Virus record (IMG/VR): IMGVR_UViG_3300021963_000027
Coordinates: 1-64,000 of that record
Strand: one strand, 5' to 3'
From: a virus
Length of the DNA stretch: 64,000 bases
Shown: positions 1,328 through 61,445 of the stretch, one piece after another
Layout of the letters: the number at the start of each line of letters is the position of its first letter
How positions within the stretch are numbered: position 1 is the first letter of the stretch
Made by a program: the position numbers and the translations under genes
The notes under the pieces: generated by a model
Databases searched by the model: none
What the model was told of the DNA's origin: nothing
The model's input: only the letters and a program-made list of their open reading frames with translations

Positions 1328-1546
1328 ATGAAACATAAATTTTATTATTACGAATACTCCGACGATGGTGGGCAAACTTGGACAATGGGCGATTATCGCC
1401 GCTATTTGATGCCCATCATAGAGCAAGTAAGAGAACTGTCCTATCCATTTCGCGTCCTTAATCAAGATGATGAACAAATCAGTGAAGAAGAAGTTCGCGA
1501 AACAATTGATCAAATGAACACAATGGAAACAATTTTTGGAAAATAA
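1328..1546 (+). CDS. hypothetical protein
   Basis: ORF in gene-dense run. Confidence 0.75.
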   Translation: MKHKFYYYEYSDDGGQTWTMGDYRRYLMPIIEQVRELSYPFRVLNQDDEQISEEEVRETIDQMNTMETIFGK

Positions 1547-1567
1547 AAACTAAGGTATACTATAATC

Positions 1568-2035
1568 ATGAAACTTTTAGGAATAACAGACGGTGAGAAA
1601 TTCATCGCATCGCTCCATCACTATCATTATGTGACTCATGGTGACATGATGTTTGATGGTGGTCAACCCCATACTAATTTTTACGGTGGTTACAATCGCT
1701 ATTCTTTGCAAGGTGAAAGAGTTTGGTTTGAAGTTGATGAAGATTTCGCAGAAATTTATAACAAATATAATCGAAAAGAAATCAATGGTGTTTGGGATGT
1801 GAAACAAGGTAGAATCCTACCACCTGAAGAACATCCAAATTGTGATAGCATCGAAGAGCAAGTCGAGAATTTTATTTGGGGGACTCGTGGTAAAGATGGT
1901 AAATCACCTCTGAAATACGTTCTCCTAAAGAATTGCGATACTGATCATCTACAGAATATTTTGAAAGATGTTAAACATATTCAAGCAGAGACGAAGAAAG
2001 TAATTGAATACATTTTGAAAAATCGTGAAGTATGA
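1568..2035 (+). CDS. hypothetical protein
   Basis: Leaderless start after M-promoter variant. Confidence 0.85.
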   Translation: MKLLGITDGEKFIASLHHYHYVTHGDMMFDGGQPHTNFYGGYNRYSLQGERVWFEVDEDFAEIYNKYNRKEINGVWDVKQGRILPPEEHPNCDSIEEQVENFIWGTRGKDGKSPLKYVLLKNCDTDHLQNILKDVKHIQAETKKVIEYILKNREV

Positions 2036-2343
2036 AAATAACAGTTACAAAAACAGAAGTCTATGATTACGATTTGAAAAAAGAGATTCGTCGTTTGAAA
2101 AAATGCTTTAAAGGTGAACAGCTTCAAAGACAGATGGATATTCTTCATGCCGCTTTCATCGAAAGAGACGATATTAAATTTAGAGAACTTTATTATGCTT
2201 TACCTGATTGTAAAGAAAATGAGTGTAGTGAGATGGAATATGTTGGATCGTGGATTAATTTTTTTGGTGGTGGAAATTGGCGTGGGGAATATTTGGTAGA
2301 AGAGGATCATGTGGTAGATTTTGAAAAATTGGAAAAATTATGA
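2032..2343 (+). CDS. hypothetical protein
   Basis: ATGA-coupled ORF. Confidence 0.8.
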   Translation: MKITVTKTEVYDYDLKKEIRRLKKCFKGEQLQRQMDILHAAFIERDDIKFRELYYALPDCKENECSEMEYVGSWINFFGGGNWRGEYLVEEDHVVDFEKLEKL

Positions 2344-2609
2344 AAGAATGCTACTGTGGTAAAAAATCATCCGACAATTACACTTGGTGTGATGATTGCC
2401 TAATCAGGAATCACAAAGCTGTTGATGCGCTTTTTAAGGTGTGTCATGATAGTCACAGAAGCGGTGCTGGAGGCGCGAGAATGTGTATATGTGGTGCTGG
2501 TTGTGGCGGCAGTGAGGCTTGCAATGGGTTGTATTTACTACAATCAGCATTGAAGTATGGTGGTAAGCAAAAAGATGATGTGATGCGATTATTTGGATGG
2601 TATGAGTGA
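2340..2609 (+). CDS. Cys-rich hypothetical protein
   Basis: CYCG..CDDC, CICG motifs. Confidence 0.75.
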   Translation: MKECYCGKKSSDNYTWCDDCLIRNHKAVDALFKVCHDSHRSGAGGARMCICGAGCGGSEACNGLYLLQSALKYGGKQKDDVMRLFGWYE

Positions 2610-2841
2610 AGAACTTGGTAAAGAAATGTGGAGGAAACATCGCGCATTACTGGATAAACATTCTGAAGAACGCTCTTCTTTATTAGCAGAAGCTTCTAAA
2701 AAATGGTTGAAAGAAGAGGCTGAATTGTATCAAGAATGCTTTGAAAAGACAGGACACAAATTCGCTATTACACCAGAAAGAAGACGCAAATTAAATGGAA
2801 TTTTGGCAGAGCGTTGTCAATATTGTGGGAGAGAAAAATAA
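2602..2841 (+). CDS. hypothetical protein, C-terminal CxxC
   Basis: ORF ending at motif. Confidence 0.75.
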   Translation: MSEELGKEMWRKHRALLDKHSEERSSLLAEASKKWLKEEAELYQECFEKTGHKFAITPERRRKLNGILAERCQYCGREK

Positions 2842-2863
2842 AAAACTAGATTACAATAATAGC

Positions 2864-3205
2864 ATGAAAAGATTAACAAAAATAGACGTAAACCCTAACA
2901 GTCTTGTGCTTCAAGCGCAAACAATCGAAGAATATAGAATTGATCAAGAGCGTGGAGGATGGGGACAGTTCTTTGAAGGTAAATCCCCACCAATTGCTTA
3001 TGAAATGGTCGGTGAATTGATTGGTGAAATTGAAGTTGATCGACAAATTTTAATGAATCGATTTTTCCGATCTGACATCACAGGAGCATTGATTGAAATG
3101 CGTGGTGTTTTCCATAGCTCGATTGTTCGGAATGTGGAAGAGCGGAATGGCGTGACTTACGTTACGACTGATAATAGTTTATACAAAGTAGAAGATTATT
3201 CATAA
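2864..3205 (+). CDS. hypothetical protein
   Basis: Leaderless start after M-promoter (track start 2795 is upstream of it). Confidence 0.8.
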   Translation: MKRLTKIDVNPNSLVLQAQTIEEYRIDQERGGWGQFFEGKSPPIAYEMVGELIGEIEVDRQILMNRFFRSDITGALIEMRGVFHSSIVRNVEERNGVTYVTTDNSLYKVEDYS

Positions 3206-3208
3206 ACC

Positions 3209-3439
3209 ATGCAGAAACTAATTTTACGATACGATTGGTCAGTTCCTTACGAAGCGTCAGGAACTGAAGTCATCCCATTTGAATATGAATCACCTGAACG
3301 GGCTTATGTTGACTTTTGTGATTTACAAGAAAAGGCTGAATACTTTTTCTGGTTTTTGGGTCACGAATTTGAAAAAGATGTTGATGTCGAATTCTTTACT
3401 TTAGAAGAATGGTTTGAGCGTTATAAATTTAAACAATAA
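3209..3439 (+). CDS. hypothetical protein
   Basis: ORF. Confidence 0.75.
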   Translation: MQKLILRYDWSVPYEASGTEVIPFEYESPERAYVDFCDLQEKAEYFFWFLGHEFEKDVDVEFFTLEEWFERYKFKQ

Positions 3440-3831
3440 TGAAAAAAAATCAATTAATCGAACAATTGCAAAAAATCAAAGGCAATCCCGAAATCAAAAT
3501 GTGGAACGGGTATGTCGATGATTGGATGGATATTAAGCTTTGCGAACAAGAGTTTGTCAAAGAATCGGAGGACTTTATTCGTTGGGGTGTCGAGATGGCT
3601 TGGAAGGAGCGTAACCAAAAATGGGAAATCCCTGAAGAGGCACAGATTCAAATCGAAGAGGTTATAAAAGAAATGTTAAAAAATAGACAGTGGGAATTGC
3701 CGAATCAATATTTGCAAACAGAAGAAGATGAGAAGCGTTGGTATGGTAAAAATAAAAAGAAGTTTGTTTTAATCAACGGAAAAATTCGCGGCAAATCAAT
3801 TGAAGATCGACTTGGAAAAGTCAGCTACTAA
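3439..3831 (+). CDS. hypothetical protein
   Basis: TAATG-coupled ORF. Confidence 0.8.
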   Translation: MKKNQLIEQLQKIKGNPEIKMWNGYVDDWMDIKLCEQEFVKESEDFIRWGVEMAWKERNQKWEIPEEAQIQIEEVIKEMLKNRQWELPNQYLQTEEDEKRWYGKNKKKFVLINGKIRGKSIEDRLGKVSY

Positions 3832-3832
3832 T

Positions 3833-4924
3833 ATGAAACTACCAAATAAAGAAGAATTCAATTTCAAAGATTGCGTCATCGCTGGTGACGAATGTTGGCT
3901 CATTACACCAAAAGATATGAGCGTCAAATGGAACGACGAAAATACTCGTTTCCGTTCTTGTATTGTGCGTAAGTCTGACAATTTCGTAATTAGCCAAGGA
4001 TTCCGAAAATTTACAAATTTCGGAGAGCAACCAGCATTTGAACCATGGAAAGATTGTTGGAAATTTGAAGCGAGACACAAGTTGGATGGTAGTCTTTTAA
4101 TCATTTCTCGATACAAAGGTCAGTGGATTACCAGAACCCGTGGCACTGTAGATGCTCGCCAACTTCCTAATGGTCATGAGATTGACCTGTTAATTGAAAA
4201 ATATAAAAAATTTTTTGAAGATAGTGATGCTATTGATAGCATATCAGCATTAGAGCAATCTTGGTTATTTGAATGGACTACTCCGTCCAATATTATTGTA
4301 TTGAAAGAGTCCGATGAGTATGAATTAACTTTAATCGGTATTGTTTCCAATGAGGATGCAGCATACTATAGTCAGGCATATGTAGATATATGTGCGATTC
4401 AATACGATTTTAAACGTCCAGAGATGTATCATTACAATTCTGTTTCAGAGTGCATTGCTGATGTTACTGCTTGGAAAGGTAAAGAGGGCGTTGTCATTTA
4501 CTCTCCCAATGGTCAAACTCTCAAGAAAATCAAAGCAAGTGAATACTGTGAACTTCATAAAATTGCTACTGGAATTAAAAATGTAAAAAATGTTCTGGAT
4601 GTATTTATGGAGTCCCCAAAATTCACCAAATATGAAGATTTCTATAGCCATATTGAAAAGTTACTCGACTTTGAGATCGCGGAAAAATGCAAACCATTTA
4701 TCCAAGAAATCACTGATGCCTATGCTAAGTTCGTAAAGGGTGTGGATAATATGAATGAGCGTATTCCTTTTATTCAGAATTACGAAACTCGCAAAGAACA
4801 AGCAATGGCGATTCAACAAGAGTTCCGTGATTGGAAGACTGCTATTGCATTTCTTCTACTTGACAATCGTAAGGTTGATGATAAAGTTGTGCGCAAAGCA
4901 ATGGAGAAAATCTTAGAACTATGA
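3833..4924 (+). CDS. RNA ligase 1 (T4 Rnl1-like)
   Basis: Motif I HKLDGS, WLFEW, KEGVV, LKKIK nucleotidyltransferase motifs. Confidence 0.85.
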   Translation: MKLPNKEEFNFKDCVIAGDECWLITPKDMSVKWNDENTRFRSCIVRKSDNFVISQGFRKFTNFGEQPAFEPWKDCWKFEARHKLDGSLLIISRYKGQWITRTRGTVDARQLPNGHEIDLLIEKYKKFFEDSDAIDSISALEQSWLFEWTTPSNIIVLKESDEYELTLIGIVSNEDAAYYSQAYVDICAIQYDFKRPEMYHYNSVSECIADVTAWKGKEGVVIYSPNGQTLKKIKASEYCELHKIATGIKNVKNVLDVFMESPKFTKYEDFYSHIEKLLDFEIAEKCKPFIQEITDAYAKFVKGVDNMNERIPFIQNYETRKEQAMAIQQEFRDWKTAIAFLLLDNRKVDDKVVRKAMEKILEL

Positions 4925-4949
4925 AAGCGAAAAACAATAAAAAATAAAT

Positions 4950-5171
4950 ATGATCATCTGTCCATACTGCCAAAAGGTAGAAGCTAAATGGGTTTATATG
5001 CCTAATGGTGAATACGCCTGTGATGACTGTGTGCCACGAAAGTGTTCCTGTAATATGGAGCCGATAGATGGCAATTGGGAAAACGAAAATGAAAGTAATT
5101 GGGACTATATAAAAGATGAAAATGAAAAACATTTACCTTGCTGTGAATGGGAATGGATAGAAGAAATATGA
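4950..5171 (+). CDS. Cys-rich hypothetical protein
   Basis: CPYC..CDDC..CSC..PCCEW. Confidence 0.75.
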   Translation: MIICPYCQKVEAKWVYMPNGEYACDDCVPRKCSCNMEPIDGNWENENESNWDYIKDENEKHLPCCEWEWIEEI

Positions 5172-5593
5172 AGAAAATAGATTTTTTAAATAACTATATA
5201 CGACTTTATAAGAAAAATATTGCAGAAATTCTTGAAAAGAAGGTTAAACCTCTTAAAGAACTTATAGCAATCCTTGAGAAACAAAGGGATGAAATCATTT
5301 TAGATTCTCAGTTTACATGGAACGATAAGACATTCAATGTTTCTGATATGCGATGGTTTAACGACTGGATGTATGAGGATTGTCCTTATACTCCAGGATT
5401 TAAAAGTTATACGGAAACATTGCATATATTTTCCACAGACGGCAGATCTATCCATTTTAGCTTGCCTGAAAACGAACACGGATGGTATGATGAAAAACAC
5501 CAACAATTCAAAGACTTCGAAGATTTTTTTATTGACAAATTTGGAGTATCGTTTAAAATGGTATTGAAAAAAGGAGAAGTGAAAGAACAATAA
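5168..5593 (+). CDS. hypothetical protein
   Basis: ORF. Confidence 0.75.
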   Translation: MKKIDFLNNYIRLYKKNIAEILEKKVKPLKELIAILEKQRDEIILDSQFTWNDKTFNVSDMRWFNDWMYEDCPYTPGFKSYTETLHIFSTDGRSIHFSLPENEHGWYDEKHQQFKDFEDFFIDKFGVSFKMVLKKGEVKEQ

Positions 5594-5594
5594 T

Positions 5595-6032
5595 ATGTTA
5601 GAAAAAATTAAACAAGATACAATTCAAGCAATGCGCGATAAGATTCGAGTAGATTTGAGCGTATTACGTATGTTGCAGAGCGCAATTACCAATGCACAAA
5701 TTCTCAAGAGAGGCGAATTGGATAAAAATGAAATCATTGGGTTGATTCGTAAACAGATTGCACAACGACAAGATAGTGTAACACAATTTCGTGCTGGAGG
5801 TAGGGAAGAATTAGCCGATAAAGAGCTTGTGGAAATCACAGTTCTTCGACGCTACTTACCTACCGAATGGTCTGATGCTGAACTCGAACAGAACGTGCAA
5901 AACGCTATTGACAATCTTGGCGCATCAAGTAAAAAAGATATGGGTCGAGTGATCAAGGCAGTTGTTGAAGCAGCAAATGGTCAATGCGATAATAAGAGAA
6001 TCTCTCAAACAGTAGGAGCAAAATTGAATTGA
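5595..6032 (+). CDS. yqeY: GatB/YqeY domain protein
   Basis: IKQDTIQAMR..LRMLQSAI..QRQDSVTQF..GREEL..KKDMGRVIK. Confidence 0.9.
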   Translation: MLEKIKQDTIQAMRDKIRVDLSVLRMLQSAITNAQILKRGELDKNEIIGLIRKQIAQRQDSVTQFRAGGREELADKELVEITVLRRYLPTEWSDAELEQNVQNAIDNLGASSKKDMGRVIKAVVEAANGQCDNKRISQTVGAKLN

Positions 6033-6033
6033 T

Positions 6034-6435
6034 ATGAAATACAGAACAGAGAAAATTATAGATGATTTCGAATGGGATAAATTGGTGCAGGAAACCTATG
6101 GTAAACCATATATCTTTCAACAACAAAATGGTTGTGTTGGCAGAGGATTATATAGCTTAACAGTTCCAAGTGAAGAAGATTATGACGATGAAATGCCTGA
6201 CAGCATTCCTGAAGTAGTCAATGGAGAGATTCAGGGTATTAAATTTGCTAAATGGTTAGAACGAGATCCTAAACAACCTCTATCAGAGGGAGAAGAGAAT
6301 ATTAGCGAATATCAATGGGCTATTGATCTTTGGTGGGAACGTAATTTTTACCCTTGTTTGGGAACTATTGCAAACGATCTTCACAAAAAAGGTTTGTTGG
6401 AGGCTGGTGAGTATATGATTAATGTTGATTGGTGA
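6034..6435 (+). CDS. hypothetical protein
   Basis: ORF. Confidence 0.8.
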   Translation: MKYRTEKIIDDFEWDKLVQETYGKPYIFQQQNGCVGRGLYSLTVPSEEDYDDEMPDSIPEVVNGEIQGIKFAKWLERDPKQPLSEGEENISEYQWAIDLWWERNFYPCLGTIANDLHKKGLLEAGEYMINVDW

Positions 6436-6464
6436 TTCTAACTAAAAAAAAGATATAAATTAAA

Positions 6465-6707
6465 ATGAATAAAAATTTCGTATTGGCAACGAGTGCAACT
6501 TGCGGTCCATGTCACTTGCTTAAAGCAAGACTGGAGAAATTGGAATTAACTGTGGAAATTAAAAATTATAATGATCCACAAAACATTGAATGGTTTAAAA
6601 AACATGGTATTCGTAATGTGCCATGTTTGGTAGTGGAAGATGATACTACCTTCGAAATCATTCAAGGTATCGATGATATTATTGAAAAAATAAAACAAGG
6701 TGAATAA
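6465..6707 (+). CDS. glutaredoxin/thioredoxin-like protein
   Basis: TCGPC and NVP motifs. Confidence 0.85.
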   Translation: MNKNFVLATSATCGPCHLLKARLEKLELTVEIKNYNDPQNIEWFKKHGIRNVPCLVVEDDTTFEIIQGIDDIIEKIKQGE

Positions 6708-7350
6708 AATTATTAAACATAAATGGGAAGATAGAAATAAAATCTTTTTCTCAAGTGATTGGCATAATTACCATGATCCGAAGTGGGATGTTCCCATCTG
6801 GAAGATGCGTGGTTATTCGTCCCCTCAAGAATCTTTGGATGATGTAGTGAACAAAATCAATGCGAGAGTTAAAGAAGATGATTTTTTATATTTTCTTGGA
6901 GATGGATTTTTGAATGCTACAGATGAACAAGTTCTGGAATGGTTCTCACGAATCAATTGTAAGAATATTAATTACATCTATGGGAATCATGAATCAAACA
7001 TTTTCCGTATCTATCGGCGAACAGTATTGGAAAAATACGGTGATCCTGATATCGAAGTGTATCCCATGCGATTTAACAATGTAGTGTTCTTGGGTAATTA
7101 CCAAGAACTCCAAGTTGGTAAGAAAAGTGTTATCCTACAACATTTTTCGATTAAGACATGGCATAACAATTCTCGTGGGAGTATCCATCTTCATGGTCAT
7201 AGCCATAATACTGATAAAACAAGAAATCCAGAGTATCCAATGGGTAAATGCCTAGACTGCTCATGGGACTATAAGAAAGATGTGTGGTCTTGGGAAGAAA
7301 TTGAAGATATCATGTCAACGAAAGACGTTTTGATAACTGACCACCATTAA
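6700..7350 (+). CDS. calcineurin-like metallophosphoesterase
   Basis: SDWH, LGD, GNHE, HGHSH motifs. Confidence 0.9.
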   Translation: MNKIIKHKWEDRNKIFFSSDWHNYHDPKWDVPIWKMRGYSSPQESLDDVVNKINARVKEDDFLYFLGDGFLNATDEQVLEWFSRINCKNINYIYGNHESNIFRIYRRTVLEKYGDPDIEVYPMRFNNVVFLGNYQELQVGKKSVILQHFSIKTWHNNSRGSIHLHGHSHNTDKTRNPEYPMGKCLDCSWDYKKDVWSWEEIEDIMSTKDVLITDHH

Positions 7351-8353
7351 TACAATAATGAGAGATTATCATAGCTTTATCATATTTTCTTTTTAAGCAC
7401 ATGCTGTGATTATTATAAATGTATTTTACAATTTTGTTGATATTTTTATAACCACATGAGCGAACAGTGGAACTTTTACTTTTCTCATGTCTGATTCTTC
7501 TATCTATTTTGTAGCTCACTCCTATATCGTCTAATAAATTAGTGAGAGATGTCCAGTCTTGTTCGTATGTTCCTGATATAGAAAATTGAAACATTTTACG
7601 TTTTAAATTTACATAAAAACAACCATCACCATCTATCCAACCTCGAAGAAAGTCTTTATGGTATTCTTTTCTAATATTTTCTAATATTTTATTTGGTGAA
7701 ATTTTTGATTTATTACAAAAATCATTATCAAATAACCATTTAGTTAAACCATAATTTCTAATATATGCATCAATTTGTGGTTGTCTTCCGATTCTGGTTC
7801 TTTTTAGATAACTTAATTTACCTAATTTTGATAAAGAATGCTCAAAATCGTAAAAGTCTTTTTCGACGCATGAAAATTTTAATGATCTACTTTTATTAAC
7901 ATAAAGATAACCATCCGCCCAAAGTAATCCGAGAGCATATGATTGCATATCATCAAATTCTGGTGTGAAGTCTTTATATAGGGTTTTTTGTTTTTCATCC
8001 ATTCTTTGTTTTTTCGTTATTTCAAGTCCACTATCGGTTAAATTTAACCGTTTTTTAGATGCGAAAAATCTTACCAATTTTTCAGAGATATTGAGATTGT
8101 CTGCACAATAACGAGTTCCAAATTTTGGATAATTATCCAAGATAAATTTTTCTTGATCTTTTGTTATTTTCGACTCTTTCTTGGATATATCCGCAACATT
8201 TTTAATTTTTTGAGGTTTTTTAATATTATTTCTATGTGTGATGTGTCTTATCGCATTTGGAGTGGTGTTTAATTTATTCGCTATTTCTAAAGTTGTCAAT
8301 CTACCATAATTGCTTTTGATAAATTCTAAAATTTCTGGTGTTAATTTGATCAT
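7310..8353 (-). CDS. LAGLIDADG homing endonuclease
   Basis: YALGLLWADG and FLRGWIDGDG motifs; TAAATA 6 nt upstream of ATG. Confidence 0.9.
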   Translation of the reverse strand: MIKLTPEILEFIKSNYGRLTTLEIANKLNTTPNAIRHITHRNNIKKPQKIKNVADISKKESKITKDQEKFILDNYPKFGTRYCADNLNISEKLVRFFASKKRLNLTDSGLEITKKQRMDEKQKTLYKDFTPEFDDMQSYALGLLWADGYLYVNKSRSLKFSCVEKDFYDFEHSLSKLGKLSYLKRTRIGRQPQIDAYIRNYGLTKWLFDNDFCNKSKISPNKILENIRKEYHKDFLRGWIDGDGCFYVNLKRKMFQFSISGTYEQDWTSLTNLLDDIGVSYKIDRRIRHEKSKSSTVRSCGYKNINKIVKYIYNNHSMCLKRKYDKAMIISHYCINGGQLSKRLSLT

Positions 8354-8447: not shown

Positions 8448-8457
8448 AATAAAACTT

Positions 8458-8742: not shown

Positions 8743-8749
8743 TCCCACC

Positions 8750-54612: not shown

Positions 54613-54640
54613 TTAAAAACTAGCCTAAACTGATTGCACC

Positions 54641-54805: not shown

Positions 54806-54833
54806 TTAAAAACTAGCCTAAACTGATTGCACC

Positions 54834-54929
54834 ATGAAACTCGACACTAACAAATGCAAGGGACTTCCAATGGGAGTCCGCAATCGCAAGCGCACGATCC
54901 TATCCAAGATCATCCGCTGGTTCAATTAA
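54834..54929 (+). CDS. basic peptide (31 aa)
   Basis: Motif-bounded. Confidence 0.6.
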   Translation: MKLDTNKCKGLPMGVRNRKRTILSKIIRWFN

Positions 54930-54951
54930 AAAACTAGACTAAACTACTACC

Positions 54952-55254
54952 ATGTCCAACACCATCAACACCCTGTCAGGCAAGTGCGCGAAATCATTCG
55001 CGTGGAAACCATTCGCGTCCGCGACTATCGCAAAAGGTAAAATTCCCTTTGCTTTCTGGGAGTCAAACCGATCAAAACGTGAGTGCAATAGCATCACGGT
55101 GATTGAGTTCGACTCGGAGCATGAAATTTCATCATGGATCTCGGATCTCTGCTCTGGTGCAATCATTTGCGATTCCAACTATTTCTGGTGCGTCTCAGTG
55201 AATGGTAAATTCGAATCATCAAAATCTCGCTACGGTGGATACCTCAGTGCCTAA
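54952..55254 (+). CDS. hypothetical protein
   Basis: Leaderless. Confidence 0.8.
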   Translation: MSNTINTLSGKCAKSFAWKPFASATIAKGKIPFAFWESNRSKRECNSITVIEFDSEHEISSWISDLCSGAIICDSNYFWCVSVNGKFESSKSRYGGYLSA

Positions 55255-55297
55255 CGGTGCTGGGGCTTTTAAAAAACTAGACTAAACTGTTACTACC

Positions 55298-55504
55298 ATG
55301 AGACTTCAAACCATCATCAATCAATTCGCCATCACCACGCGCAAAACACGCGAGGGCAATACCATCGTGGAAGCACCCATCGGCACTGAGTATCGTCGCT
55401 TTCTTTTCAACCTTCAGGACTACGTTGTCACGGGTTGCGCTGGTGATATGGTATGGCTTAGTCCACGCCAAGGTTTCTATGGCGGTGTCCCATACGGCAA
55501 TTAA
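55298..55504 (+). CDS. hypothetical protein
   Basis: Motif-bounded. Confidence 0.8.
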   Translation: MRLQTIINQFAITTRKTREGNTIVEAPIGTEYRRFLFNLQDYVVTGCAGDMVWLSPRQGFYGGVPYGN

Positions 55505-55529
55505 AAAACTAGACTAAACTGTTACTACC

Positions 55530-55766
55530 ATGAGAAAAGGATACGGACCAACCAACGTTAGCTACCACCTCCCCCTTCAGCGTTTCACCGAGATGGTGAA
55601 GCAGGGGATCAACATCGCTCAGGGAGTCGATGACAATAACAAAGTGCTTTCCAGCACACTGCCGCAAAACCTATCGGAAAATTCAATCAAAAGAATTTTC
55701 GACGATGCGGATTGCGTCTGCTACCACGGAGGTGTTCAGATGATCATCCCCCGTCATCTTGCTTAA
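55530..55766 (+). CDS. hypothetical protein
   Basis: Motif-bounded. Confidence 0.8.
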   Translation: MRKGYGPTNVSYHLPLQRFTEMVKQGINIAQGVDDNNKVLSSTLPQNLSENSIKRIFDDADCVCYHGGVQMIIPRHLA

Positions 55767-55826
55767 AGACTAGGGGGGAGCGCATCCTACACGCTCATTA
55801 AAAAACTAGAGTAAACTGTTACTACC

Positions 55827-56039
55827 ATGATTACTGTATTGACCATCGAAGACCTTGAAACAATCATCACCAAAACGTCCCCGCGCCTTAGTGCGCTCGG
55901 AATCGTGTACGCAATCATCAATGATGATACTGATGAAGAAGTCACAAGCCGATACCCCACAATCGAGGAAGCGTGGGATGAATTTAAAAAGACTTGGGTT
56001 GTCGGGACGTTCACCGTTCTCACAATCTTTAGATCCTGA
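55827..56039 (+). CDS. hypothetical protein
   Basis: Motif-bounded. Confidence 0.8.
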   Translation: MITVLTIEDLETIITKTSPRLSALGIVYAIINDDTDEEVTSRYPTIEEAWDEFKKTWVVGTFTVLTIFRS

Positions 56040-56068
56040 TTAAAAAACTAGAGTAAACTGTTACTACC

Positions 56069-56305
56069 ATGAATACTACCACTGCTACCACCGCCACCGC
56101 CAAGAACTTCATCGTTGCCTTCCACGACTGGCAAGGCAATCGCCATACAGTTCAAGTCAAAGCTTCCGATAAAACGTCCGCATACGATGCGGCGTGGCAA
56201 TGGATTGAAGAGAATCGCGGCGACCAACTGGAAATTGAATTTGCGGGTGTTAAAGAGATTGTCTATCTCAAAGACATCATCGCAGAAGCACTGGCTGCAA
56301 ATTAA
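56069..56305 (+). CDS. hypothetical protein
   Basis: Motif-bounded. Confidence 0.8.
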   Translation: MNTTTATTATAKNFIVAFHDWQGNRHTVQVKASDKTSAYDAAWQWIEENRGDQLEIEFAGVKEIVYLKDIIAEALAAN

Positions 56306-56327
56306 AAAACTAGAGTAAAATAGCTCT

Positions 56328-56420
56328 GTCAACCCCTTCCAACTATCGCGAAGGGTCAACCTGAACCATCAACTACCCCGTCTCTCCCGACCACAGGGAG
56401 GGGCGGGGCAACCAATCTGC
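56328..56420 (+). ncRNA. ORF-less M-promoter cassette with two hairpins
   Basis: No ATG; CCCTT/AAGGG and 13-bp GC stem 56376-56408. Confidence 0.45.
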
Positions 56421-56451
56421 TTTTAAAAAACTAGAGTAGACTGCTACTACC

Positions 56452-56670
56452 ATGAATTACATCACTCCAGAATACGACTTCACAGGACGCTGCACTCCAT
56501 CGGAGGAAGCACAACGCAAGGAAGCGCAAGCGTTCGCCGCCTATCGCGAAAAGGAAGAAGCTAAAAAATTCAAGGTGCGCGATGCCTTCGGGTTCTCCCG
56601 CTACGCCACCTTGGAAGAAGCGCAAGCGTTCGCCGCCACCCTCAAGAATGCAGAGATCATCATCCTATAA
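56452..56670 (+). CDS. hypothetical protein with internal repeat EEAQRK/AFAA
   Basis: Motif-bounded. Confidence 0.75.
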   Translation: MNYITPEYDFTGRCTPSEEAQRKEAQAFAAYREKEEAKKFKVRDAFGFSRYATLEEAQAFAATLKNAEIIIL

Positions 56671-56699
56671 TTAAAAAACTAGAGTAAACTGATTACGCC

Positions 56700-56909
56700 A
56701 TGAATGAAATTACTGCTGACGAGGCACTTGCCCAAATTCGCTCCATGTCCGATAGAGAGTTAGTTGCTTTCTGGAATGTCTTGCAATTCTCTTCCCGTAT
56801 GGTAGGGAGCGGTCGCGACACTTTCAGAGAACCACTGGTTTCTCTTGTCATGAGTGAGCGCAAAATCCCTCATGAGATTGGGAAGCGAACTCTAACATCT
56901 AACATCTAA
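56700..56909 (+). CDS. hypothetical protein
   Basis: Motif-bounded. Confidence 0.75.
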   Translation: MNEITADEALAQIRSMSDRELVAFWNVLQFSSRMVGSGRDTFREPLVSLVMSERKIPHEIGKRTLTSNI

Positions 56910-56942
56910 CATCTAACGCCCACGGTCTAACAGATCGTGGGC
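56891..56942 (+). repeat. 52-bp direct repeat copy 1: (TCTAACA)3 + hairpin
   Basis: Identical to 58097-58148. Confidence 0.9.
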
Positions 56943-56969
56943 TTTTAAAAACTAGAGCAAACTGTTGCC

Positions 56970-58094
56970 ATGCCTACTACCAATACTACCACTGCTACCA
57001 TCCCCGCCTCCGCCCGTGCAGCATTCATCGCTGCCCTCGTCAAACTCAATCGTCGCGCTGCTCGCTTGGGCTGCGCACCACTGACAATCGTATCGACAGT
57101 CGATACGATCGTGGAGATCGACAGAGTGAAGTTCCCTGCGCTCCGTCTCGAAATCGCAGGTACAACACCAACTTTTTCAGGTTGGACGTTTGCCGCCTCT
57201 GTCGAAGCACTTGACACTGGAAAAAACATCTTCCATGGTGCTAGCGACATCCCTGCGCGATTCGCTAGCACTGGTCACGCCTGTGAGCATTGCAACCAAA
57301 ATCGCAAGCGCAACTCCAGCTTCATCTTGAGCCATGAAGCAGGTGACTACAAGCAGGTTGGTTCGACCTGCATCAACGACTTCCTCGGTGGTAATCACTT
57401 GCCAGTGTTCAATTTCCTCTCGAATGCGCGTGAGATTCTCAGCGAGTTTGAGAGCTTCGCAAACGCTACCATTGACAGCGTGAGCGTGATCACCACCCTC
57501 GTGGCATCCGCCGCCACGATTCGAGAGCATGGCTTCGCGAAGAAAACAGGATGGGATGGTGAAGGTGCGCGTCCCACGGCATCTCTCGTCGAATCGTTTC
57601 TTTTGGACGTTCGCAACCCTAAGCGTTTCGTTCCTGACATCACGGAAAACGATGAGGCGAAAGCAGAAGCCGTTCGCGCTTGGTTGGTCAACCACGAAGG
57701 AACGCAAAGCGATTACCTGCAAAAGCTGATCGACTTGGCAGCAGCAACACGGGTGTCATCTCGAAACATCGGTATCCTCGCATCGTCCATCGCCGCCTAT
57801 GATCGCGAGTTAGAGCGCAAAGCACAAGTCCTTGCCAGTCCTTCCAATCACGTTGGAACGGTGGGCAAGCGTGAGTCGTTCACCGTCTCTCTCACTGGTT
57901 GCAAGGTGCTTCCCGACTATGGCTATGGTTGCTCAAATCTCTATTCATTCAAGGACGAAAACGGCAACATCCTGAAGTGGAAAACACAAGCGCAACTCGA
58001 ACGCACTGGCACGTTCCAGATCACTGGAACGGTGAAATCACACGGTGCGTGGAACGGCGTGAGTGAAACCGAACTGACTCGGTGCAAAGTCTAA
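56970..58094 (+). CDS. 374-aa protein with CxxC Zn motif and C-terminal OB-fold-like region
   Basis: CEHCNQNRKRN..VGSTC; HVGTVGKRESF..FKDENGNILKW..ITGTVKSH. Confidence 0.8.
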   Translation: MPTTNTTTATIPASARAAFIAALVKLNRRAARLGCAPLTIVSTVDTIVEIDRVKFPALRLEIAGTTPTFSGWTFAASVEALDTGKNIFHGASDIPARFASTGHACEHCNQNRKRNSSFILSHEAGDYKQVGSTCINDFLGGNHLPVFNFLSNAREILSEFESFANATIDSVSVITTLVASAATIREHGFAKKTGWDGEGARPTASLVESFLLDVRNPKRFVPDITENDEAKAEAVRAWLVNHEGTQSDYLQKLIDLAAATRVSSRNIGILASSIAAYDRELERKAQVLASPSNHVGTVGKRESFTVSLTGCKVLPDYGYGCSNLYSFKDENGNILKWKTQAQLERTGTFQITGTVKSHGAWNGVSETELTRCKV

Positions 58095-58159
58095 CATCTA
58101 ACATCTAACATCTAACATCTAACGCCCACGGTCTAACAGATCGTGGGCGTTTTTTTTTT
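58090..58159 (+). terminator. direct repeat copy 2 with intrinsic terminator
   Basis: AACGCCCACG-loop-CGTGGGCGTT plus long T tract. Confidence 0.85.
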
Positions 58160-58164: not shown

Positions 58165-58390
58165 CTGGTAGTCTAGTTTTTTAATTCAACTTTTTAAAAA
58201 CTAGGGGGGTCTGTTTGGATTTGCTTTAGTTTTTAAAAACTAGGGTAGGGGGGGTGTATGCCATGGCTAAATAATTTTTTATATAATTCTTGGAAATTCG
58301 CCCATTGAAAAAAATTTTTTTTATATGAAATTTTCCAATTTTCCTATATTCGCGCCCTCCTCAAAAAATTTTTTTTGGTATTTTTTAGCG
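58165..58390. other. strand-switch junction with inverted/palindromic motif copies, G-runs and A/T palindromes
   Basis: TAGTCTAGTTTTTTAATT (inverted motif), TAGTTTTTAAAAACTA palindrome, AAAAAATTTTTT blocks. Confidence 0.6.
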
Positions 58391-59247: not shown

Positions 59248-59286
59248 TCTATTATTTAATCAATAGACCATTCGACTTCTTTTATT

Positions 59287-60390
59287 TTAAGGGAATATGT
59301 CTTCTTGGTGAAAGAAATAGTAAATTGCTGCTTGGGAGATAATTAAGATAATGAATGCTGCAATGACCCATCCCGTAGGAATCAGGAAATCTGTGTCTTT
59401 ATACATTGTCCATTCATGGGATTGGAAGTCTTTGCGGACAATCGCTTTCAATTCTTTTAGGATATCATCGTTTACGGGATTTGTTAAGAACAGAGTTTGG
59501 ATATTTTGTTTCACCAATTCACTCTTAGACCAACCAAAGACATAGCACCAATCAGCGGAAGCGTTTTTAGTCCCTCCATGACAGATCACCAGATCATTCT
59601 TTTTACCGTTTTGCCAGTGAGCCTGAATATATTTCGCCTTTTCAATGCTATCTGTCTTTACTAGAATGAGGTTGACATGTTTCTGCGGTCCGAGCGCACT
59701 ATTCATTTTGTCCCAATTCCAGATATCAATGGCAGTGTCACCGATGATTCTCGATGAACTGAACGTGGCATTGTCGGGATAATTTGGTAGTCCCATTTTT
59801 TGAGCCTCTTCTTTGGAGATCTTTTGATAATTATGTAGTGTTTTACTATTTTTCAGAGGGTTCATCCATGTTCTGATTTTCGTTACAGGGTAATCACAAA
59901 ATTCAGGATCATCATTCACATAGGAAATATAATCGTTTCTATCACCGCTATCATAATCAGGACGATAACCCTTTTCTACGGAGATTCCGTGTTTCTCCGA
60001 GATTTGATCAAAGAACCAAGGCTCGATATCATACCTACCCAAAGTCGTTTCCACCCACCATTTGGGGTAATGTGTCTCCCGTTTTGTTTCAGGGACTGTG
60101 TATGATGTGGTGTTGCCTTTGCTGTCAGTAGAATAATGTGTTACCAATTCTATCCACTCTGCTTCCCACTTGGGAATATGAACTGCTTTTTCAACCTTTC
60201 CTGAATGAGTCTCTGTATCTCTTTGATTGGAACACTTCGACAAACCCAAGACCATCGAAATTGTTACCAGAGCAGCGGCGATTCCCACACCGCTTTCTCT
60301 GATATCAATCGTATGGAATTTAATCCATGCGAAAACCCCCGCCGCAACGGGGATAATCATCAATAAGAATAACCAATATCCGAATGTCAT
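59287..60390 (-). CDS. membrane protein (2 N-terminal + 1 C-terminal TM)
   Basis: Hydrophobic segments; coupled to upstream ORF. Confidence 0.85.
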   Translation of the reverse strand: MTFGYWLFLLMIIPVAAGVFAWIKFHTIDIRESGVGIAAALVTISMVLGLSKCSNQRDTETHSGKVEKAVHIPKWEAEWIELVTHYSTDSKGNTTSYTVPETKRETHYPKWWVETTLGRYDIEPWFFDQISEKHGISVEKGYRPDYDSGDRNDYISYVNDDPEFCDYPVTKIRTWMNPLKNSKTLHNYQKISKEEAQKMGLPNYPDNATFSSSRIIGDTAIDIWNWDKMNSALGPQKHVNLILVKTDSIEKAKYIQAHWQNGKKNDLVICHGGTKNASADWCYVFGWSKSELVKQNIQTLFLTNPVNDDILKELKAIVRKDFQSHEWTMYKDTDFLIPTGWVIAAFIILIISQAAIYYFFHQEDIFP

Positions 60391-60950
60391 TACTTGATCC
60401 AGTTGGAGTTATCTTCCCCTGTTTGGAAATTCTCTTTGGTTTCCGCACTTGTCACGATCACGACTTGGATTTCCTGTTTACCAAACATCTTGAGAATGAT
60501 GCCTGATGGGAATTGAGTGATCATATCGTCTCCTTGTCTTTTGATTTCCAAAAGACGGGTTTGAGAGAATTGCCAATCCTTACGACCAGCCACAATGATA
60601 TTCTGTAGATTAGTCAAAGTCTTGACTTCCGTAATCGTCGGAACCGCTTCTTGAACCATACCCACAGTCACCAATTGACCTTCTCCTGCTGTGTTACCCC
60701 CTCTTGCCTGAGCATAACCAGTAATAATATTCGTCAGAGCTTCCACTTCCTTATCGGATACAGATGCTGCTTCTCGAATCGCCTTTCGTGTATTATCCAA
60801 CACGTTCTTATTATCTTCCTGTGTAGCTTTCGCCAAATTCTCCAATTTCGTGTAGCCATTGAAGCTACCGATAGCGGAGAACAAGAAGATAAGACCAAGG
60901 AAGACAATACTTCCACCTGCAACCAATGATGTAATTAATGTTTTATTCAT
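60390..60950 (-). CDS. LemA-like membrane-anchored protein
   Basis: N-terminal TM followed by helical domain, ending FPSGIILKMFG. Confidence 0.6.
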   Translation of the reverse strand: MNKTLITSLVAGGSIVFLGLIFLFSAIGSFNGYTKLENLAKATQEDNKNVLDNTRKAIREAASVSDKEVEALTNIITGYAQARGGNTAGEGQLVTVGMVQEAVPTITEVKTLTNLQNIIVAGRKDWQFSQTRLLEIKRQGDDMITQFPSGIILKMFGKQEIQVVIVTSAETKENFQTGEDNSNWIK

Positions 60951-60983
60951 TTCGCAAGTATCTTACCCTATTTTTTTATTTTG

Positions 60984-61373
60984 TCAATAGGGTTGCCATT
61001 CCCAATCACCGTTTTTCATTTCCCAACAATTACTCAAAAATGTTTCTCGGTATGCCGAGTGATTACCCTTTTCAATAATAACATCATCTGTATTAATAGC
61101 GTATTTTGTCCAATCTCCATCAATATTTTTAATATTTACAATATCCCATAAACGATTTTCTATTTCCACTGTCTCCATCTGTCCTTTATTCCTACGCATT
61201 TGGGGTACGATAATTTTGAGTAATTCCGTATCCTCCGACTTCAAAAAATGTCGTTCCCAATTCTCAAAAAGAGTCGCAAGATACAATCTTTCAAATTCGC
61301 TCAATTCGGGAGTGACATCATCTCTGTAATCCAACACCTTTTTCCATTTTTTCAATAATTCGTCGCTCGACAT
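60984..61373 (-). CDS. protein resembling N-terminal propeptide of T4-type major capsid gp23
   Basis: ELLKKWKKVLDY..ATLFEN. Confidence 0.55.
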   Translation of the reverse strand: MSSDELLKKWKKVLDYRDDVTPELSEFERLYLATLFENWERHFLKSEDTELLKIIVPQMRRNKGQMETVEIENRLWDIVNIKNIDGDWTKYAINTDDVIIEKGNHSAYRETFLSNCWEMKNGDWEWQPY

Positions 61374-61445
61374 AGAAAAATATTACTCCATTTTTTATTT
61401 TTGTCAACCCCTTGACTTATTTAAAAACTAGAATACAATCAGAAC

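What the first reader, a model, noticed from the sequence alone, without database searches (positions are those of the whole stretch)
1545..61445. About 100 copies of one phage-specific promoter motif organise the whole accessory region
Seen: TTAAAAA(A)CTAGRN immediately followed by a TAnnnT hexamer recurs about 100 times (manual count). All copies but one (58169) are on the + strand, and density rises from one per 2-3 kb at 1-25 kb to one per ~250 bp at 43-57 kb, where almost every gene or small RNA has its own copy. Most lack a -35 box. Known: T4 middle promoters replace -35 with a MotA box, and PeSL cassettes shuffle genes in T4-type phages. Inference: the A-tract/CTAG block at about -13 to -24 is read by a phage activator or sigma factor encoded outside the window, or is an unusual host extended-promoter element. 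This may be an undescribed promoter class.
Basis: partly seen in the sequence, partly recalled or inferred. Interest (0 to 1): 0.9.

Follow-up and report, generated by a model that had tools for sequence, protein, structure and literature searches.

The report
Phage promoters fused to start codons
An uncultured T4-like lake phage puts the same 20-base promoter, made of a phage-private box plus an ordinary -10 element and no -35, directly against the start codon of about 80 small genes, so each gene probably makes its own message with no leader or ribosome-binding site; what reads the box is unknown.

Summary
A position-weight scan finds 98 copies on the + strand and 2 on the - strand of the 184-kb genome. 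93 strict copies lie in window 1550-61428, against 0.05 expected for the exact 12-mer. The consensus is (a)TT-A5/6-CTA-GAn-TAcAaT-N5-C-ATG.

It is a promoter class. The hexamer has the invariant -10 positions, 90 of 94 sites have pyrimidine/purine at -1/+1, and the -35 region matches TTGACA no better than random sequence.

tRNA genes also begin at that position. The messages are therefore probably leaderless, which explains one promoter per gene.

The T4-late-type motif (TAAATA-N5-ATG, 49 sites) and host-type promoters (TTGACA-N16-TGn-TAnnnT) also abut ATGs, and Shine-Dalgarno sites are nearly absent.

The box lacks both -35 and TGn, is all-or-none, and is AAAAACTA here but AAACACTA in a sister lineage. 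This favours an unidentified phage-specified adaptor over host sigma alone. No MotA, AsiA or phage RNA polymerase was found.

It is not a PeSL: there are no stem-loops. Strain breakpoints do cluster at copies.

This scan has noted the same layout on other DNA (e1-5390801, e1-5809651). No 5' ends are mapped and the host is unknown.

The parts
1542..58151 (+). Co-oriented array of box-promoter/leaderless-ORF units, closed by one strong terminator. C of the CTA core lies at: 1550, 2846, 8860, 9578, 14536, 14936, 16986, 17835, 19640, 21068, 23178, 25620, 26216, 26892, 27822, 28964, 29563, 29895, 30172, 30689, 31780, 32473, 33253, 34368, 34783, 35649, 35843, 36555, 37336, 38386, 39161, 39732, 40096, 40281, 40599, 41069, 41283, 42726, 42837, 43106, 43501, 43703, 43876, 44250, 44434, 44595, 44989, 45301, 45545, 45967, 46328, 46586, 46765, 47165, 47524, 47803, 48013, 48212, 48465, 48700, 48917, 49215, 49624, 49928, 50217, 50444, 50752, 51196, 51468, 51732, 52049, 52155, 52406, 52761, 52986, 53126, 53269, 53626, 53749, 53918, 54088, 54436, 54620, 54813, 54934, 55277, 55509, 55806, 56048, 56310, 56431, 56679. 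Each unit spans C-8 to C+20.
   Evidence: Counts and statistics are. Terminator-like sites are at chance level inside 40-58 kb.
43098..43126 (+). Representative unit: TT-AAAAAA-CTA-GAA-TACAAT-CATAAC-ATG. Box at -26..-14, -10 hexamer at 43112-43117, ATG at 43124 (= predicted +1). Its TAG (43107-43109) is the stop codon of the upstream ORF 42855-43109.
54428..54459 (+). Representative unit of the GC-richer 52-57 kb block: box, -10 variant TAAACT, conserved C/A at +17/+18 and ATG at +21 (ACC-ATG), giving a 3-nt leader.
14520..14547 (+). Box promoter that also carries a -35 hexamer: TTGACT, 16 nt, TACAAT. The same arrangement occurs at 27806, 42710 and 61412.
   Evidence: The 16-nt spacing to TAcAaT identifies that hexamer as the -10 element.
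42718..42822 (+). Box promoter with -35 driving tRNA-Met (42748-42822). The predicted start at 42744 is 4 nt before the mature 5' end.
52041..52142 (+). Box promoter driving a tRNA-like gene (52067-52142). The predicted +1 at 52067 is the first base of the RNA.
61420..61448 (+). Last copy, with -35 TTGACT at 61412. Its ATG at 61446 precedes the main tRNA cluster.
58121..58151 (+). The only strong intrinsic terminator of the array: 14-bp stem followed by a T run. All array transcripts would end here.
   Evidence: sequence shown.
58173..58184 (-). The single - strand copy in the window. It faces the terminator and no ORF follows it.
8420..8447 (+). Example of the host-type promoter class, TTGACA-N16-TAACAT, with the ATG 10 nt after the hexamer (a leader of about 4 nt). 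Others in the window: 25604 (+), 60987 (-) and 61407 (-). The last puts +1 on the ATG.
63263..63287 (+). Example of the T4-late-type class (TAAATA-N5-ATG) inside the window. Two more lie on the - strand, with their ATGs at 59247 and 42655.

Best explanation
The repeat is a phage-lineage-specific promoter.

Its downstream half, TAcAaT, is an ordinary sigma-70-family -10 element read by the host core RNA polymerase with its housekeeping sigma. Its upstream half is the invariant box A5-6-CTA(GA) at -24 to -14. This box takes the place of both the -35 hexamer and the TGn extended -10.

The geometry puts the transcription start on the A of the start codon, or 3 nt before it. Each unit therefore yields a leaderless mRNA that ribosomes must enter at the 5'-terminal AUG.

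Only a 5'-terminal AUG can be used in this way, and the array has no internal terminators or Shine-Dalgarno sites. Every gene therefore needs its own promoter. Each promoter is packed into the last codons of the gene before it and often supplies that gene's stop codon (TAA or TAG).

I think it more likely than not (about 55-60%) that the box is read by a still unidentified phage-specified adaptor that retargets the host holoenzyme. This would resemble T4 MotA/AsiA or mycobacterial PafBC in principle. The alternative is that host sigma reads it unaided.

The identical 20-bp copies also mark the points at which related phages differ in gene content.

Shown by sequence: the motif, its numbers, geometry, conservation and lineage variants.
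For: 1. Excess and strand bias. 80 exact copies against 0.05 expected. 98 on + and 2 on - by PWM.

2. A -10 signature. T, A, A and T at hexamer positions 1, 2, 4 and 6 in 89-99% of copies. -1/+1 is CA in 70 of 94 copies and pyrimidine-purine in 90 of 94.

3. Register. Four copies have TTGACT exactly 16 nt upstream of this hexamer. That is the spacing preferred by the genome's host-type promoters: 33 sites at N16 against about 6 at other spacings.

4. Start codons. The ATG follows the hexamer by 6 nt in 56 copies and by 9 nt in 18. In 82 of 93 copies an ORF of at least 25 codons opens there. Only 38% of all + strand ATGs open 30 or more codons.

5. RNA genes begin at or near the same predicted +1: the tRNA at 52067 exactly, and tRNA-Met 4 nt downstream.

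6. No Shine-Dalgarno. 10 of 144 non-early genes have an SD core, and G is depleted upstream of starts. Two other promoter classes also abut ATGs: TAAATA-N5-ATG at 49 sites against about 4 at neighbouring spacings, and host-type promoters.

7. Not a duplication artefact. 76 cassette proteins contain only one paralogue family, of 3 members.

8. Selection in orthologous pairs, using relatives at 70-88% nt identity. The box core is 0.90-1.0 identical, the key -10 positions 0.94-0.97 and the ATG 0.93-0.97. The 6 nt between hexamer and ATG are only 0.58-0.73 identical.

9. Packing. 28 of 75 upstream ORFs stop in the motif's own TAA or TAG. There are no internal terminators.

10. Evidence for a private reader.
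- Host-type promoters of the same genome carry T-15 G-14 in 18-19 of 29 sites, whereas the box class has G-15 A-14.
- Of 79 TAnnnT-N6-ATG sites, 57 have a perfect AAAACTA, none has 1-2 mismatches and 22 have 3 or more.
- Relatives at about 80% aa identity keep AAAAACTA in 75 of 75 copies. A sister lineage at 45-65% aa identity uses AAACACTA in 49 of 50 copies, yet has the same host-type and late grammars.
- No bacterial genome among the 120 rows returned carried the motif more than once.

11. Cassette boundaries. 87 of 206 homology break points lie within 25 nt of a copy, against 23 expected and a maximum of 40 in 1000 randomisations.
Against: - No 5' ends, transcripts or proteins have been measured. 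Promoter activity, the start site and leaderless translation all rest on geometry.
- A second TAnnnT (TAGAnT, 5 nt upstream) overlaps the box. If it were the real -10, the mRNAs would have a leader of about 5 nt instead of none.
- No reader gene was found. MotA, AsiA, T7-type RNA polymerase and a second sigma are absent. Pfam and PHROGs scans of about 60 proteins gave no transcription factor.
- The record is only 89% complete, so a reader gene could lie in the missing part.
- The host is unknown. If it belongs to a group where a bare -10 suffices, as in Actinobacteria or Deinococcus-Thermus, host sigma alone could work and the box could simply be an enhancer.
- Lineage-fixed box variants could reflect different hosts, or homogenisation by recombination between copies.
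- Genes inside operons lack both a promoter and an SD, so the host must also have some SD-independent internal initiation. This weakens the argument that one promoter per gene is forced.
- Break points at copies cannot be separated from break points at gene borders.
Confidence: 0.72

Rival explanations
1. Host sigma-A holoenzyme reads the whole motif unaided. The A tract and CTA in the spacer act as a strong spacer or extended -10-like element tuned to the unknown host. No phage factor is involved, and the class is simply this phage's version of strong early promoters, as in T4 early promoters.
For: - The -10 element is canonical.
- The host-type TTGACA promoters of the same genome are also A-rich at -23..-21 (17-20 of 29) and have A at -16 (16 of 29). 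Part of the box therefore matches a general preference.
- Hybrid promoters exist that combine -35, box and -10: 14520, 25604, 27806, 42710 and 61412.
- No factor gene was found.
- Early genes have to be transcribed before any phage protein has been made.
Against: - The box class lacks both -35 and the TGn that host-type promoters carry.
- The box is all-or-none, with no 1-2 mismatch forms. Elements read softly by sigma are degenerate.
- Position -20 is fixed as A in one lineage and C in the sister lineage across about 50-95 copies each, while both share the same host-type grammar.
- Bare TAnnnT-N6-ATG sites are not enriched: 14 of 268 ORFs against roughly 8 expected.
Confidence: 0.3
2. The primary role of the repeat is recombinational. 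It would be a 20-bp homology site at which gene cassettes are inserted, deleted and exchanged (PeSL-like or integron-like), with any promoter activity secondary.
For: - Homology break points between related phages cluster at copies: 87 of 206 against 23 expected.
- The cassettes are unrelated ORFans.
- The copies are co-oriented.
Against: - A recombination site would not need a -10 signature, a pyrimidine/purine start context or a fixed 6-nt distance to the ATG.
- The copies sit at every gene border, so break points at gene borders give the same statistic.
- No integrase-type gene was seen among the proteins scanned.
- PeSL stem-loops are absent.
Confidence: 0.1
3. The motif acts at the RNA level. 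It would be an A-rich, SD-independent translation enhancer or an RNase processing site inside one long early transcript, not a transcription start.
For: - The phage has almost no Shine-Dalgarno sites, and A/T-rich sequence precedes internal genes.
- No terminators separate the units.
Against: - The conserved positions are exactly those of a -10 hexamer, T1 A2 A4 T6, not a generic A-rich tract.
- A -35 hexamer occurs at correct spacing in several copies.
- tRNA genes, which are not translated, carry the same motif at the same distance.
- The 6 nt next to the ATG are the least conserved. This is the opposite of what a ribosome-contact site would show.
Confidence: 0.04
4. The motif is the promoter of a phage-encoded RNA polymerase, or of a complete phage sigma factor, that recognises the whole 20 bp.
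For: A conserved block of about 20 bp with near-invariant positions resembles single-subunit polymerase promoters.
Against: - There is no T7-type polymerase match, although that search's control genomes gave no match either, so this test is weak.
- The only sigma-like ORF is a weak gp55-like one of 146 aa. It fits the separate TAAATA class.
- The downstream half is a standard sigma-70 -10 with standard spacing to +1.
- The core genes are T4-like, and T4-like phages use the host core enzyme. That last point is my own knowledge.
Confidence: 0.04

Closest known systems
T4 middle promoters (MotA box plus sigma-70 -10; sigma appropriation by MotA and AsiA)
   Same: A T4-type phage uses a hybrid promoter. 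The host -10 element is kept, the -35 hexamer is missing, and a phage-private box upstream takes its place. There are many copies in regions of small accessory genes.
   Different: - The box sequence differs: A5-6CTAGA rather than (a/t)(a/t)(a/t)TGCTTtA.
- It lies about 8-10 bp closer to the -10, at -26..-14 instead of centred at -30 (MotA-box details from my own knowledge).
- No motA or asiA homologue was found.
- The transcripts are predicted to be leaderless, unlike T4's.
PafBC-dependent promoters of mycobacteria ('sigma adaptation', -26 element; Muller et al. 2021, PMC8635444)
   Same: The geometry matches: a canonical -10 (tA-N3-T), no -35, and an activator-specific element one helical turn closer than a -35 (-23..-28). 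It is read by a factor that inserts between the DNA and sigma domain 4.
   Different: - The element sequence is different (tGTCgg).
- PafBC is a cellular WYL-domain regulator of DNA-damage genes, not a phage system.
- No homologue was tested for or identified here.
- The box here extends down to -14.
PeSL cassettes (promoter-early stem-loops) of T4-type phages RB49/phi1 (Arbiol et al. 2010, PMC2839356)
   Same: Repeated early-type promoters head ORFan genes in hyperplastic regions of T4-type genomes. Differences between related phages map to the repeats.
   Different: - PeSLs are full sigma-70-like promoters joined to stem-loop terminators.
- Here there is no -35 and no stem-loop, and terminators are at chance level with a single one at the end of the array.
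- The promoter is fused to the ATG.
Leaderless gene architecture of Deinococcus-Thermus and Actinobacteria (TANNNT about 6-7 nt before the start codon; Zheng et al. 2011, PMC3160421; PMC12340547), and Thermus phage phiYS40 with mostly leaderless middle and late mRNAs (reviewed in PMC3594737)
   Same: A -10 motif lies directly next to the ORF, there is no SD, and the start falls on the initiation codon. phiYS40 shows that a large myovirus can run most of a temporal class on leaderless mRNAs.
   Different: - Here a private box is added to the -10.
- The arrangement covers early-type, late-type and host-type promoters alike in a T4-like phage with 36% G+C.
- Leadered and internal genes also lack SD, unlike in Actinobacteria (my own knowledge).
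- The host is unknown.

Membership tests
Sigma-70-family (housekeeping-type) bacterial promoter | -10 hexamer TAnnnT with near-invariant A-11 and T-7 | tested here: met
   T 86/92, A 91/92, A 82/92 and T 90/92 at hexamer positions 1, 2, 4 and 6. These positions are 0.94-0.97 conserved in orthologous pairs.
Sigma-70-family (housekeeping-type) bacterial promoter | -35 hexamer TTGACA 16-18 nt upstream of the -10 | tested here: not met
   Information content is 0.08 bit or less at that position. The best-match distribution equals random windows, except for about 9 of 94 copies.
Sigma-70-family (housekeeping-type) bacterial promoter | Extended -10 TGn at -15/-14, which normally compensates for a missing -35 | tested here: not met
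   The box class has G-15 A-14. The genome's own TTGACA-type promoters have T-15 in 18 of 29 and G-14 in 19 of 29.
Sigma-70-family (housekeeping-type) bacterial promoter | Primary transcript 5' end about 7 nt after the -10 | not testable with these tools
   Indirect evidence only: pyrimidine/purine at -1/+1 in 90 of 94 copies, and a tRNA-like gene whose first base falls on the predicted +1.
T4 middle promoter / MotA-AsiA sigma appropriation | MotA box (a/t)(a/t)(a/t)TGCTTtA centred at about -30 | tested here: not met
   The box is (a)TT-A5/6-CTAGA at -26..-14, with no TGCTT.
T4 middle promoter / MotA-AsiA sigma appropriation | motA and asiA genes in the phage | tested here: not met
   No match to PF09114, PF09158 or PF09010 in the six-frame genome at E<=1. 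The record is 89% complete.
PeSL cassette | Stem-loop terminator joined to each early promoter | tested here: not met
   14 terminator-like sites in 40-59 kb against 13.7 expected. The only strong + strand one is at 58121-58151. Upstream ORFs run into the motif.
PeSL cassette | Insertions, deletions and replacements between related phages bounded by the repeats | tested here: inconclusive
   87 of 206 break points lie within 25 nt of a copy against 23 expected. However, copies coincide with gene borders.
Leaderless gene architecture (-10 next to the ORF) | TANNNT at a fixed 6-7 nt before the start codon, with no SD | tested here: met
   The gap is 6 nt in 56 copies and 9 nt in 18. The 6 intervening nt are the least conserved. 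SD cores occur in 10 of 144 other genes.
Leaderless gene architecture (-10 next to the ORF) | mRNA 5' end at the start codon, and translation from it | not testable with these tools
   Needs 5'-end mapping and ribosome profiling or N-terminal proteomics in the unknown host.
PafBC-type sigma adaptation promoter | Canonical -10, no -35, activator element at about -26 | tested here: met
   The geometry is met when compared with PMC8635444. This is likeness in layout only.
PafBC-type sigma adaptation promoter | PafBC/WYL-type activator and the tGTCgg element | tested here: not met
   The tGTCgg element is absent. No HTH or WYL family appeared among about 60 proteins scanned. There was no dedicated WYL search.
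T4-type late promoter (second class in this genome) | TATAAATA-like motif centred at -10, plus a gp55 late sigma | tested here: inconclusive
   TAAATA-N5-ATG occurs at 49 sites before structural genes. A 146-aa ORF at genome 115775-116215 matches Sigma70_r2 only weakly, at 15-16 bits, below the cut-off.

The most novel reading that the evidence does not exclude
A clade of lake T4-like phages carries an undiscovered sigma-retargeting factor. It would read a private box of 12-15 bp set directly against the -10 element and would co-evolve with that box (AAAAACTA in one lineage, AAACACTA in the sister lineage).

These phages would also run almost their whole programme, early-type and late-type genes alike, on leaderless mRNAs. 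'One promoter per gene' would then be a rule of genome construction, and phage messages might be set apart from host messages at the ribosome.
Probability: 0.3. Interest if true: 0.85.

Novelty: new variant of a known kind. Interest (0 to 1): 0.68.

Why it matters
- **Expression strategy.** If the geometry is borne out, this is a large T4-type phage in which about 80 accessory genes, and about 50 genes behind late-type promoters, are each expressed from a 20-bp promoter fused to the start codon. No ribosome-binding site would be used anywhere. That would be one of the most systematic uses of leaderless expression in a bacterial virus. It would also explain the otherwise odd 'one promoter per gene' layout.
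- **A missing factor.** The private box is all-or-none and changes between sister lineages. This points to a promoter-specificity factor that none of the family models searched detected, and so to a possible new way of retargeting host RNA polymerase.
- **Practical uses.** The motif gives exact start codons for about 130 genes of an uncultured phage. It marks small RNA genes. It also gives a compact, testable expression unit.
- **Genome evolution.** The motif marks the joints at which related phages exchange accessory genes.

Tried and rejected
- **Host identification failed.**
  - Megablast of 10 kb against isolate phages found nothing.
  - The DNA polymerase and portal proteins are only about 30% identical to those of cyanophage, pelagiphage and KVP40-type phages.
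  - The YqeY-like gene has only phage or metagenome relatives, with bacterial hits at 40% or less.
- **Motif in bacterial genomes.** Only single, scattered hits were returned, with no similarity to the phage.
- **Search for a reader gene.**
  - PF04542 gave one weak gp55-like hit. PF00940, PF09010, PF09114 and PF09158 gave none.
  - Pfam and PHROGs scans of about 60 proteins gave RNA ligases, a phosphoesterase, DenV, YqeY, YopX, a glutaredoxin-like protein, homing endonucleases and a DNA methylase, but no transcription factor.
  - ORF 8458-8742 (94 aa, basic, host-type promoter) was considered as an AsiA-like candidate. Its sister-lineage orthologue has no host-type promoter, and the Atlas gave only sub-threshold look-alikes. 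I dropped it.
- **Translation-modifying genes.** bS21, IF3 and MazF are absent.
- **Archaeal TATA-box reading of TTAAAAAA.** Rejected, because the core genes are T4-like, canonical -35/TGn/-10 promoters are present, and the hexamer sits 6 nt from the ATG.
- **Tandem duplication as the source of the repeat.** Rejected.
- **Are TAAATA-to-ATG fusions general in T4-like isolates?** No. The counts are 1-11 in S-CRM01, Mosig, Melnitz, T4 and C48C1, against 49 here.
- **Literature.** The primary phiYS40 paper (PMC1885378) is not held. Searches for the motif, or for leaderless T4-like or cyanophage promoters, found nothing relevant.

Full report
**Setting**

The window is the first 64 kb of a 184,181-bp IMG/VR virus record. 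The record is linear and CheckV estimates it at 89% complete.

PHROGs assigns a tail sheath, a baseplate wedge subunit, a portal, a large terminase, a family-B DNA polymerase and a ribonucleotide reductase. The polymerase and portal are only about 30% identical to those of cyanophages, pelagiphages, Melnitz and KVP40-type phages. This is therefore a deep-branching T4-like myovirus with no close cultured relative. Its G+C content is about 36%. The host is unknown.

**The observation**

- The exact 11-mer and 12-mer occur 22 and 58 times, against 0.04-0.05 expected.
- A weight-matrix scan of the whole genome gives 98 sites on the + strand and 2 on the - strand.
- The general form AAAACTA-N3-TAnnnT gives 94 on + and 1 on -, with 93 inside window 1550-61428.
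- The rest of the genome, 120 kb, has only a handful.
- Density is one per 2.3 kb up to 25 kb, one per 0.64 kb at 25-43 kb and one per 264 bp at 43-57 kb.
- The consensus is (a)TT-A5/6-CTA-GAn-TAcA(a/c)T-N5-C-ATG-A.
- The A run is A6 in 68 copies and A5 in 23. Seven copies read CTAA instead of CTAG.
- The region where a -35 hexamer would lie carries no information. It matches TTGACA no better than random windows, except in about nine copies.

**It is a promoter**

- The hexamer has the signature of a sigma-70-family -10 element: positions 1, 2, 4 and 6 are conserved at 89-99%.
- Four copies (14520, 27806, 42710, 61412) carry TTGACT exactly 16 nt upstream of this hexamer.
- 16 nt is the spacing preferred by the genome's ordinary promoters. 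TTGAC[AT]-N16-TAnnnT occurs 33 times, against about 6 at other spacings.
- Six or seven nucleotides after the hexamer, the sequence is CA in 70 of 94 copies and pyrimidine-purine in 90 of 94. This is the usual context of a start site.
- In orthologous promoter pairs from relatives at 70-88% nucleotide identity, the box core is 0.90-1.0 identical and the key -10 positions 0.94-0.97. The six bases after the hexamer are only 0.58-0.73 identical.
- The upstream flank shows three-base periodicity, so it is coding sequence right up to the motif.
- The 76 proteins behind the copies include only one paralogue family of three members. The repeat is therefore not a by-product of gene duplication.

**The start falls on the start codon**

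- The ATG begins exactly 6 nt after the hexamer in 56 copies and 9 nt after it in 18. In the latter, the C/A of the predicted start is kept, giving a 3-nt leader.
- In 82 of 93 copies an ORF of at least 25 codons opens there. Among all + strand ATGs, 38% open 30 or more codons.
- RNA genes give independent support. A tRNA-like gene begins at 52067, exactly at +18 from the C at 52049. tRNA-Met begins 4 nt after the predicted start.
I did not verify that gene.

This geometry is the accepted sequence signature of leaderless genes: TANNNT about 6-7 nt before the start codon. It was defined computationally (PMC3160421) and validated experimentally in Deinococcus (PMC12340547).

**Leaderless design is general in this phage**

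- TAAATA, the last six bases of the T4 late motif TATAAATA (my own knowledge), is followed by N5-ATG at 49 sites, against about 4 at neighbouring spacings.
- These sites precede the sheath gene and other genes at 63-184 kb, including some beside the polymerase gene.
- Several host-type promoters also put +1 on the ATG, for example at 61407(-), 71620(-), 112207, 124076 and 133498.
- Only 10 of 144 genes outside the early region have a Shine-Dalgarno core, and G is depleted upstream of starts.
- Internal operon genes are preceded by A/T-rich sequence only.
- This is not a general trait of T4-like isolates. TAAATA-N5-ATG occurs 1-11 times in S-CRM01, Mosig, Melnitz, T4 and C48C1.

**Packing**

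- Of 75 ORFs that are followed by another copy, 19 stop in the motif's TAA and 9 in its TAG. Most of the others stop within about 40 nt.
- Terminator-like hairpins are at chance level in 40-59 kb. One strong terminator at 58121-58151 closes the array, and - strand genes converge beyond it.
- Transcripts from all copies would therefore be nested and co-terminal.
- A leaderless message can only be entered at its 5' AUG. One promoter per gene is then what one would expect.

**Who reads the box**

The genome's host-type promoters show what the host enzyme likes: TTGACA, a 16-nt spacer that is A-rich at -23..-21, and T-15 G-14 in 18-19 of 29 sites. The box class has neither -35 nor TGn. It has G-15 A-14 instead.

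The box is all-or-none. Of 79 TAnnnT-N6-ATG sites on the + strand, 57 have a perfect AAAACTA at -22..-16, none has one or two mismatches, and 22 have three or more.

Comparison of lineages:

| Genome or set | Relation to this phage | Box | Source |
|---|---|---|---|
| 157 unique sites in 21 IMG/VR loci | 77-96% nt identity | same motif, same ATG offset | |
| Further relatives, e.g. complete 207-kb G004 | about 80% aa identity | AAAAACTA, mostly with A5, in 75 of 75 copies | |
| Sister lineage, complete 202-kb G001 | 45-65% aa identity | (g)AT-n-AAACACTA-N3-TAtAAT-N6-ATG, with C at -20 in 49 of 50 copies and variable -15/-14 | |

G001 has the same three classes, including TTGACA-N16 with T-15 G-14 and 54 TAAATA-N5-ATG sites.

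So there are two lineages with the same general promoter grammar but different, internally uniform private boxes. This fits a dedicated reader that co-evolves with its site better than a soft preference of host sigma. A scan of bacterial genomes found no genome with more than one copy among the 120 rows returned.

Against this view:

- MotA, AsiA and T7-type polymerase are absent.
- The one sigma-like ORF is a weak gp55-like match, which suits the late class.
- About 60 proteins scanned gave no transcription factor.
- The two lineages may simply have different hosts.

I put the adaptor reading at about 55-60% and host sigma alone at about 30%.

**Comparison with known systems**

- **T4 middle promoters.** In function, the closest analogues are T4 middle promoters (private box plus host -10). 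By position, the closest are the PafBC 'sigma adaptation' promoters of mycobacteria, which have a -10, no -35 and an element at -23..-28 (PMC8635444). Membership in either family fails on sequence and on the absence of the factors.
- **PeSLs.** PeSLs are sigma-70-like promoters joined to stem-loop terminators (PMC2839356). The stem-loops are missing here. The evolutionary role may be shared, because homology break points between relatives fall within 25 nt of a copy 87 times out of 206 against 23 expected. Copies and gene borders coincide, however.
- **phiYS40.** Thermus phage phiYS40 is the precedent for a large myovirus with mostly leaderless middle and late messages (PMC3594737).

**Earlier notes and literature**

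Earlier notes of this scan describe the same layout in other lake T4-like phages. One is the AAACACTA lineage, which I re-derived and tested here. I found no paper that describes this promoter class or this degree of leaderless organisation in a T4-type phage.

**Verdict**

- The feature is real and highly non-random.
- It is almost certainly a promoter class.
- It very probably drives leaderless mRNAs.
- I class it as a new variant of known kinds: hybrid phage promoters and leaderless gene architecture.
- Everything beyond sequence geometry awaits 5'-end mapping and a host.

Noticed in passing
genome 63-184 kb; in the window, ATGs at 42655(-), 59247(-) and 63285(+): A second promoter class, (c/t)TAAATAATAwT-ATG (TAAATA-N5-ATG), occurs at 49 sites against about 4 at other spacings. 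It precedes the sheath gene and other genes at 63-184 kb, including some beside the polymerase gene. These are T4-late-type promoters that would also give leaderless mRNAs. The count is far higher than in T4, S-CRM01, Mosig, Melnitz or C48C1 (1-11).
   Followed up: partly
window 8420, 25604, 60987(-), 61407(-); genome 71620(-), 112207, 124076, 133498: A third class of host-type promoters: TTGACA, a 16-nt spacer with an A tract at -23..-19, TGn, then TAnnnT. Several have the ATG at or within 4 nt of the predicted start.
   Followed up: partly
window 52000-58100: G+C rises from about 36% to 43-51%. The cassettes here use the -10 variant TAAACT and an ACC-ATG start at +21. This suggests a block of genes acquired from a source richer in G+C.
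   Followed up: no
window 58100-58260: The region contains three TCTAACA repeats and then the strong terminator at 58121-58151. Next come an inverted pair of box copies, 58173-58184(-) and 58194-58204(+), and a further copy at 58233-58243. The two + strand copies are followed by G runs instead of a -10 hexamer. They are box copies without a promoter half, at the point where + and - strand genes converge.
   Followed up: no
window 26793-26880: A host-type promoter, TTGACT-N16-TAACAT, is followed by a tRNA-like stretch (GGCAGAGTGGTAATGG..CTGGTCTTGAAAACCAG..). ARAGORN and Rfam do not call it. It may be a truncated or unusual tRNA.
   Followed up: no
window 34337-34360: A run of 12 C followed by TCCCTCCCT lies directly upstream of a box copy (C at 34368).
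   Followed up: no
window 199-780(+), 7310-8353(-), 24658-25428(-): Three homing-endonuclease genes of different families (HNH, LAGLIDADG, GIY-YIG) lie in the early region. Two are on the strand opposite to the array.
   Followed up: no
genome 112241-113167 (+): An N6/N4 DNA methylase gene has a host-type promoter whose predicted start is its ATG. Whether it modifies CTAG is unknown. CTAG is under-represented in the genome (275 against 604 expected), and about a third of all CTAGs lie in the box.
   Followed up: no
window 29895, 46765 and 25620: Box variants carry one extra base (AAAAACTAAGA-TACAAT) and an ATG 11 nt after the hexamer. The copy at 25620 combines a -35, the box and G at -14. These are hybrid forms between the two promoter classes.
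   Followed up: no
window 61654-63243: The phage tRNAs (Gly-TCC, Asn, Lys-TTT, Glu-TTC, Thr-TGT, Tyr, Pro-TGG, Gln-TTG, Met) mostly read A/T-ending codons. This hints at a host with higher G+C than the phage.
   Followed up: no
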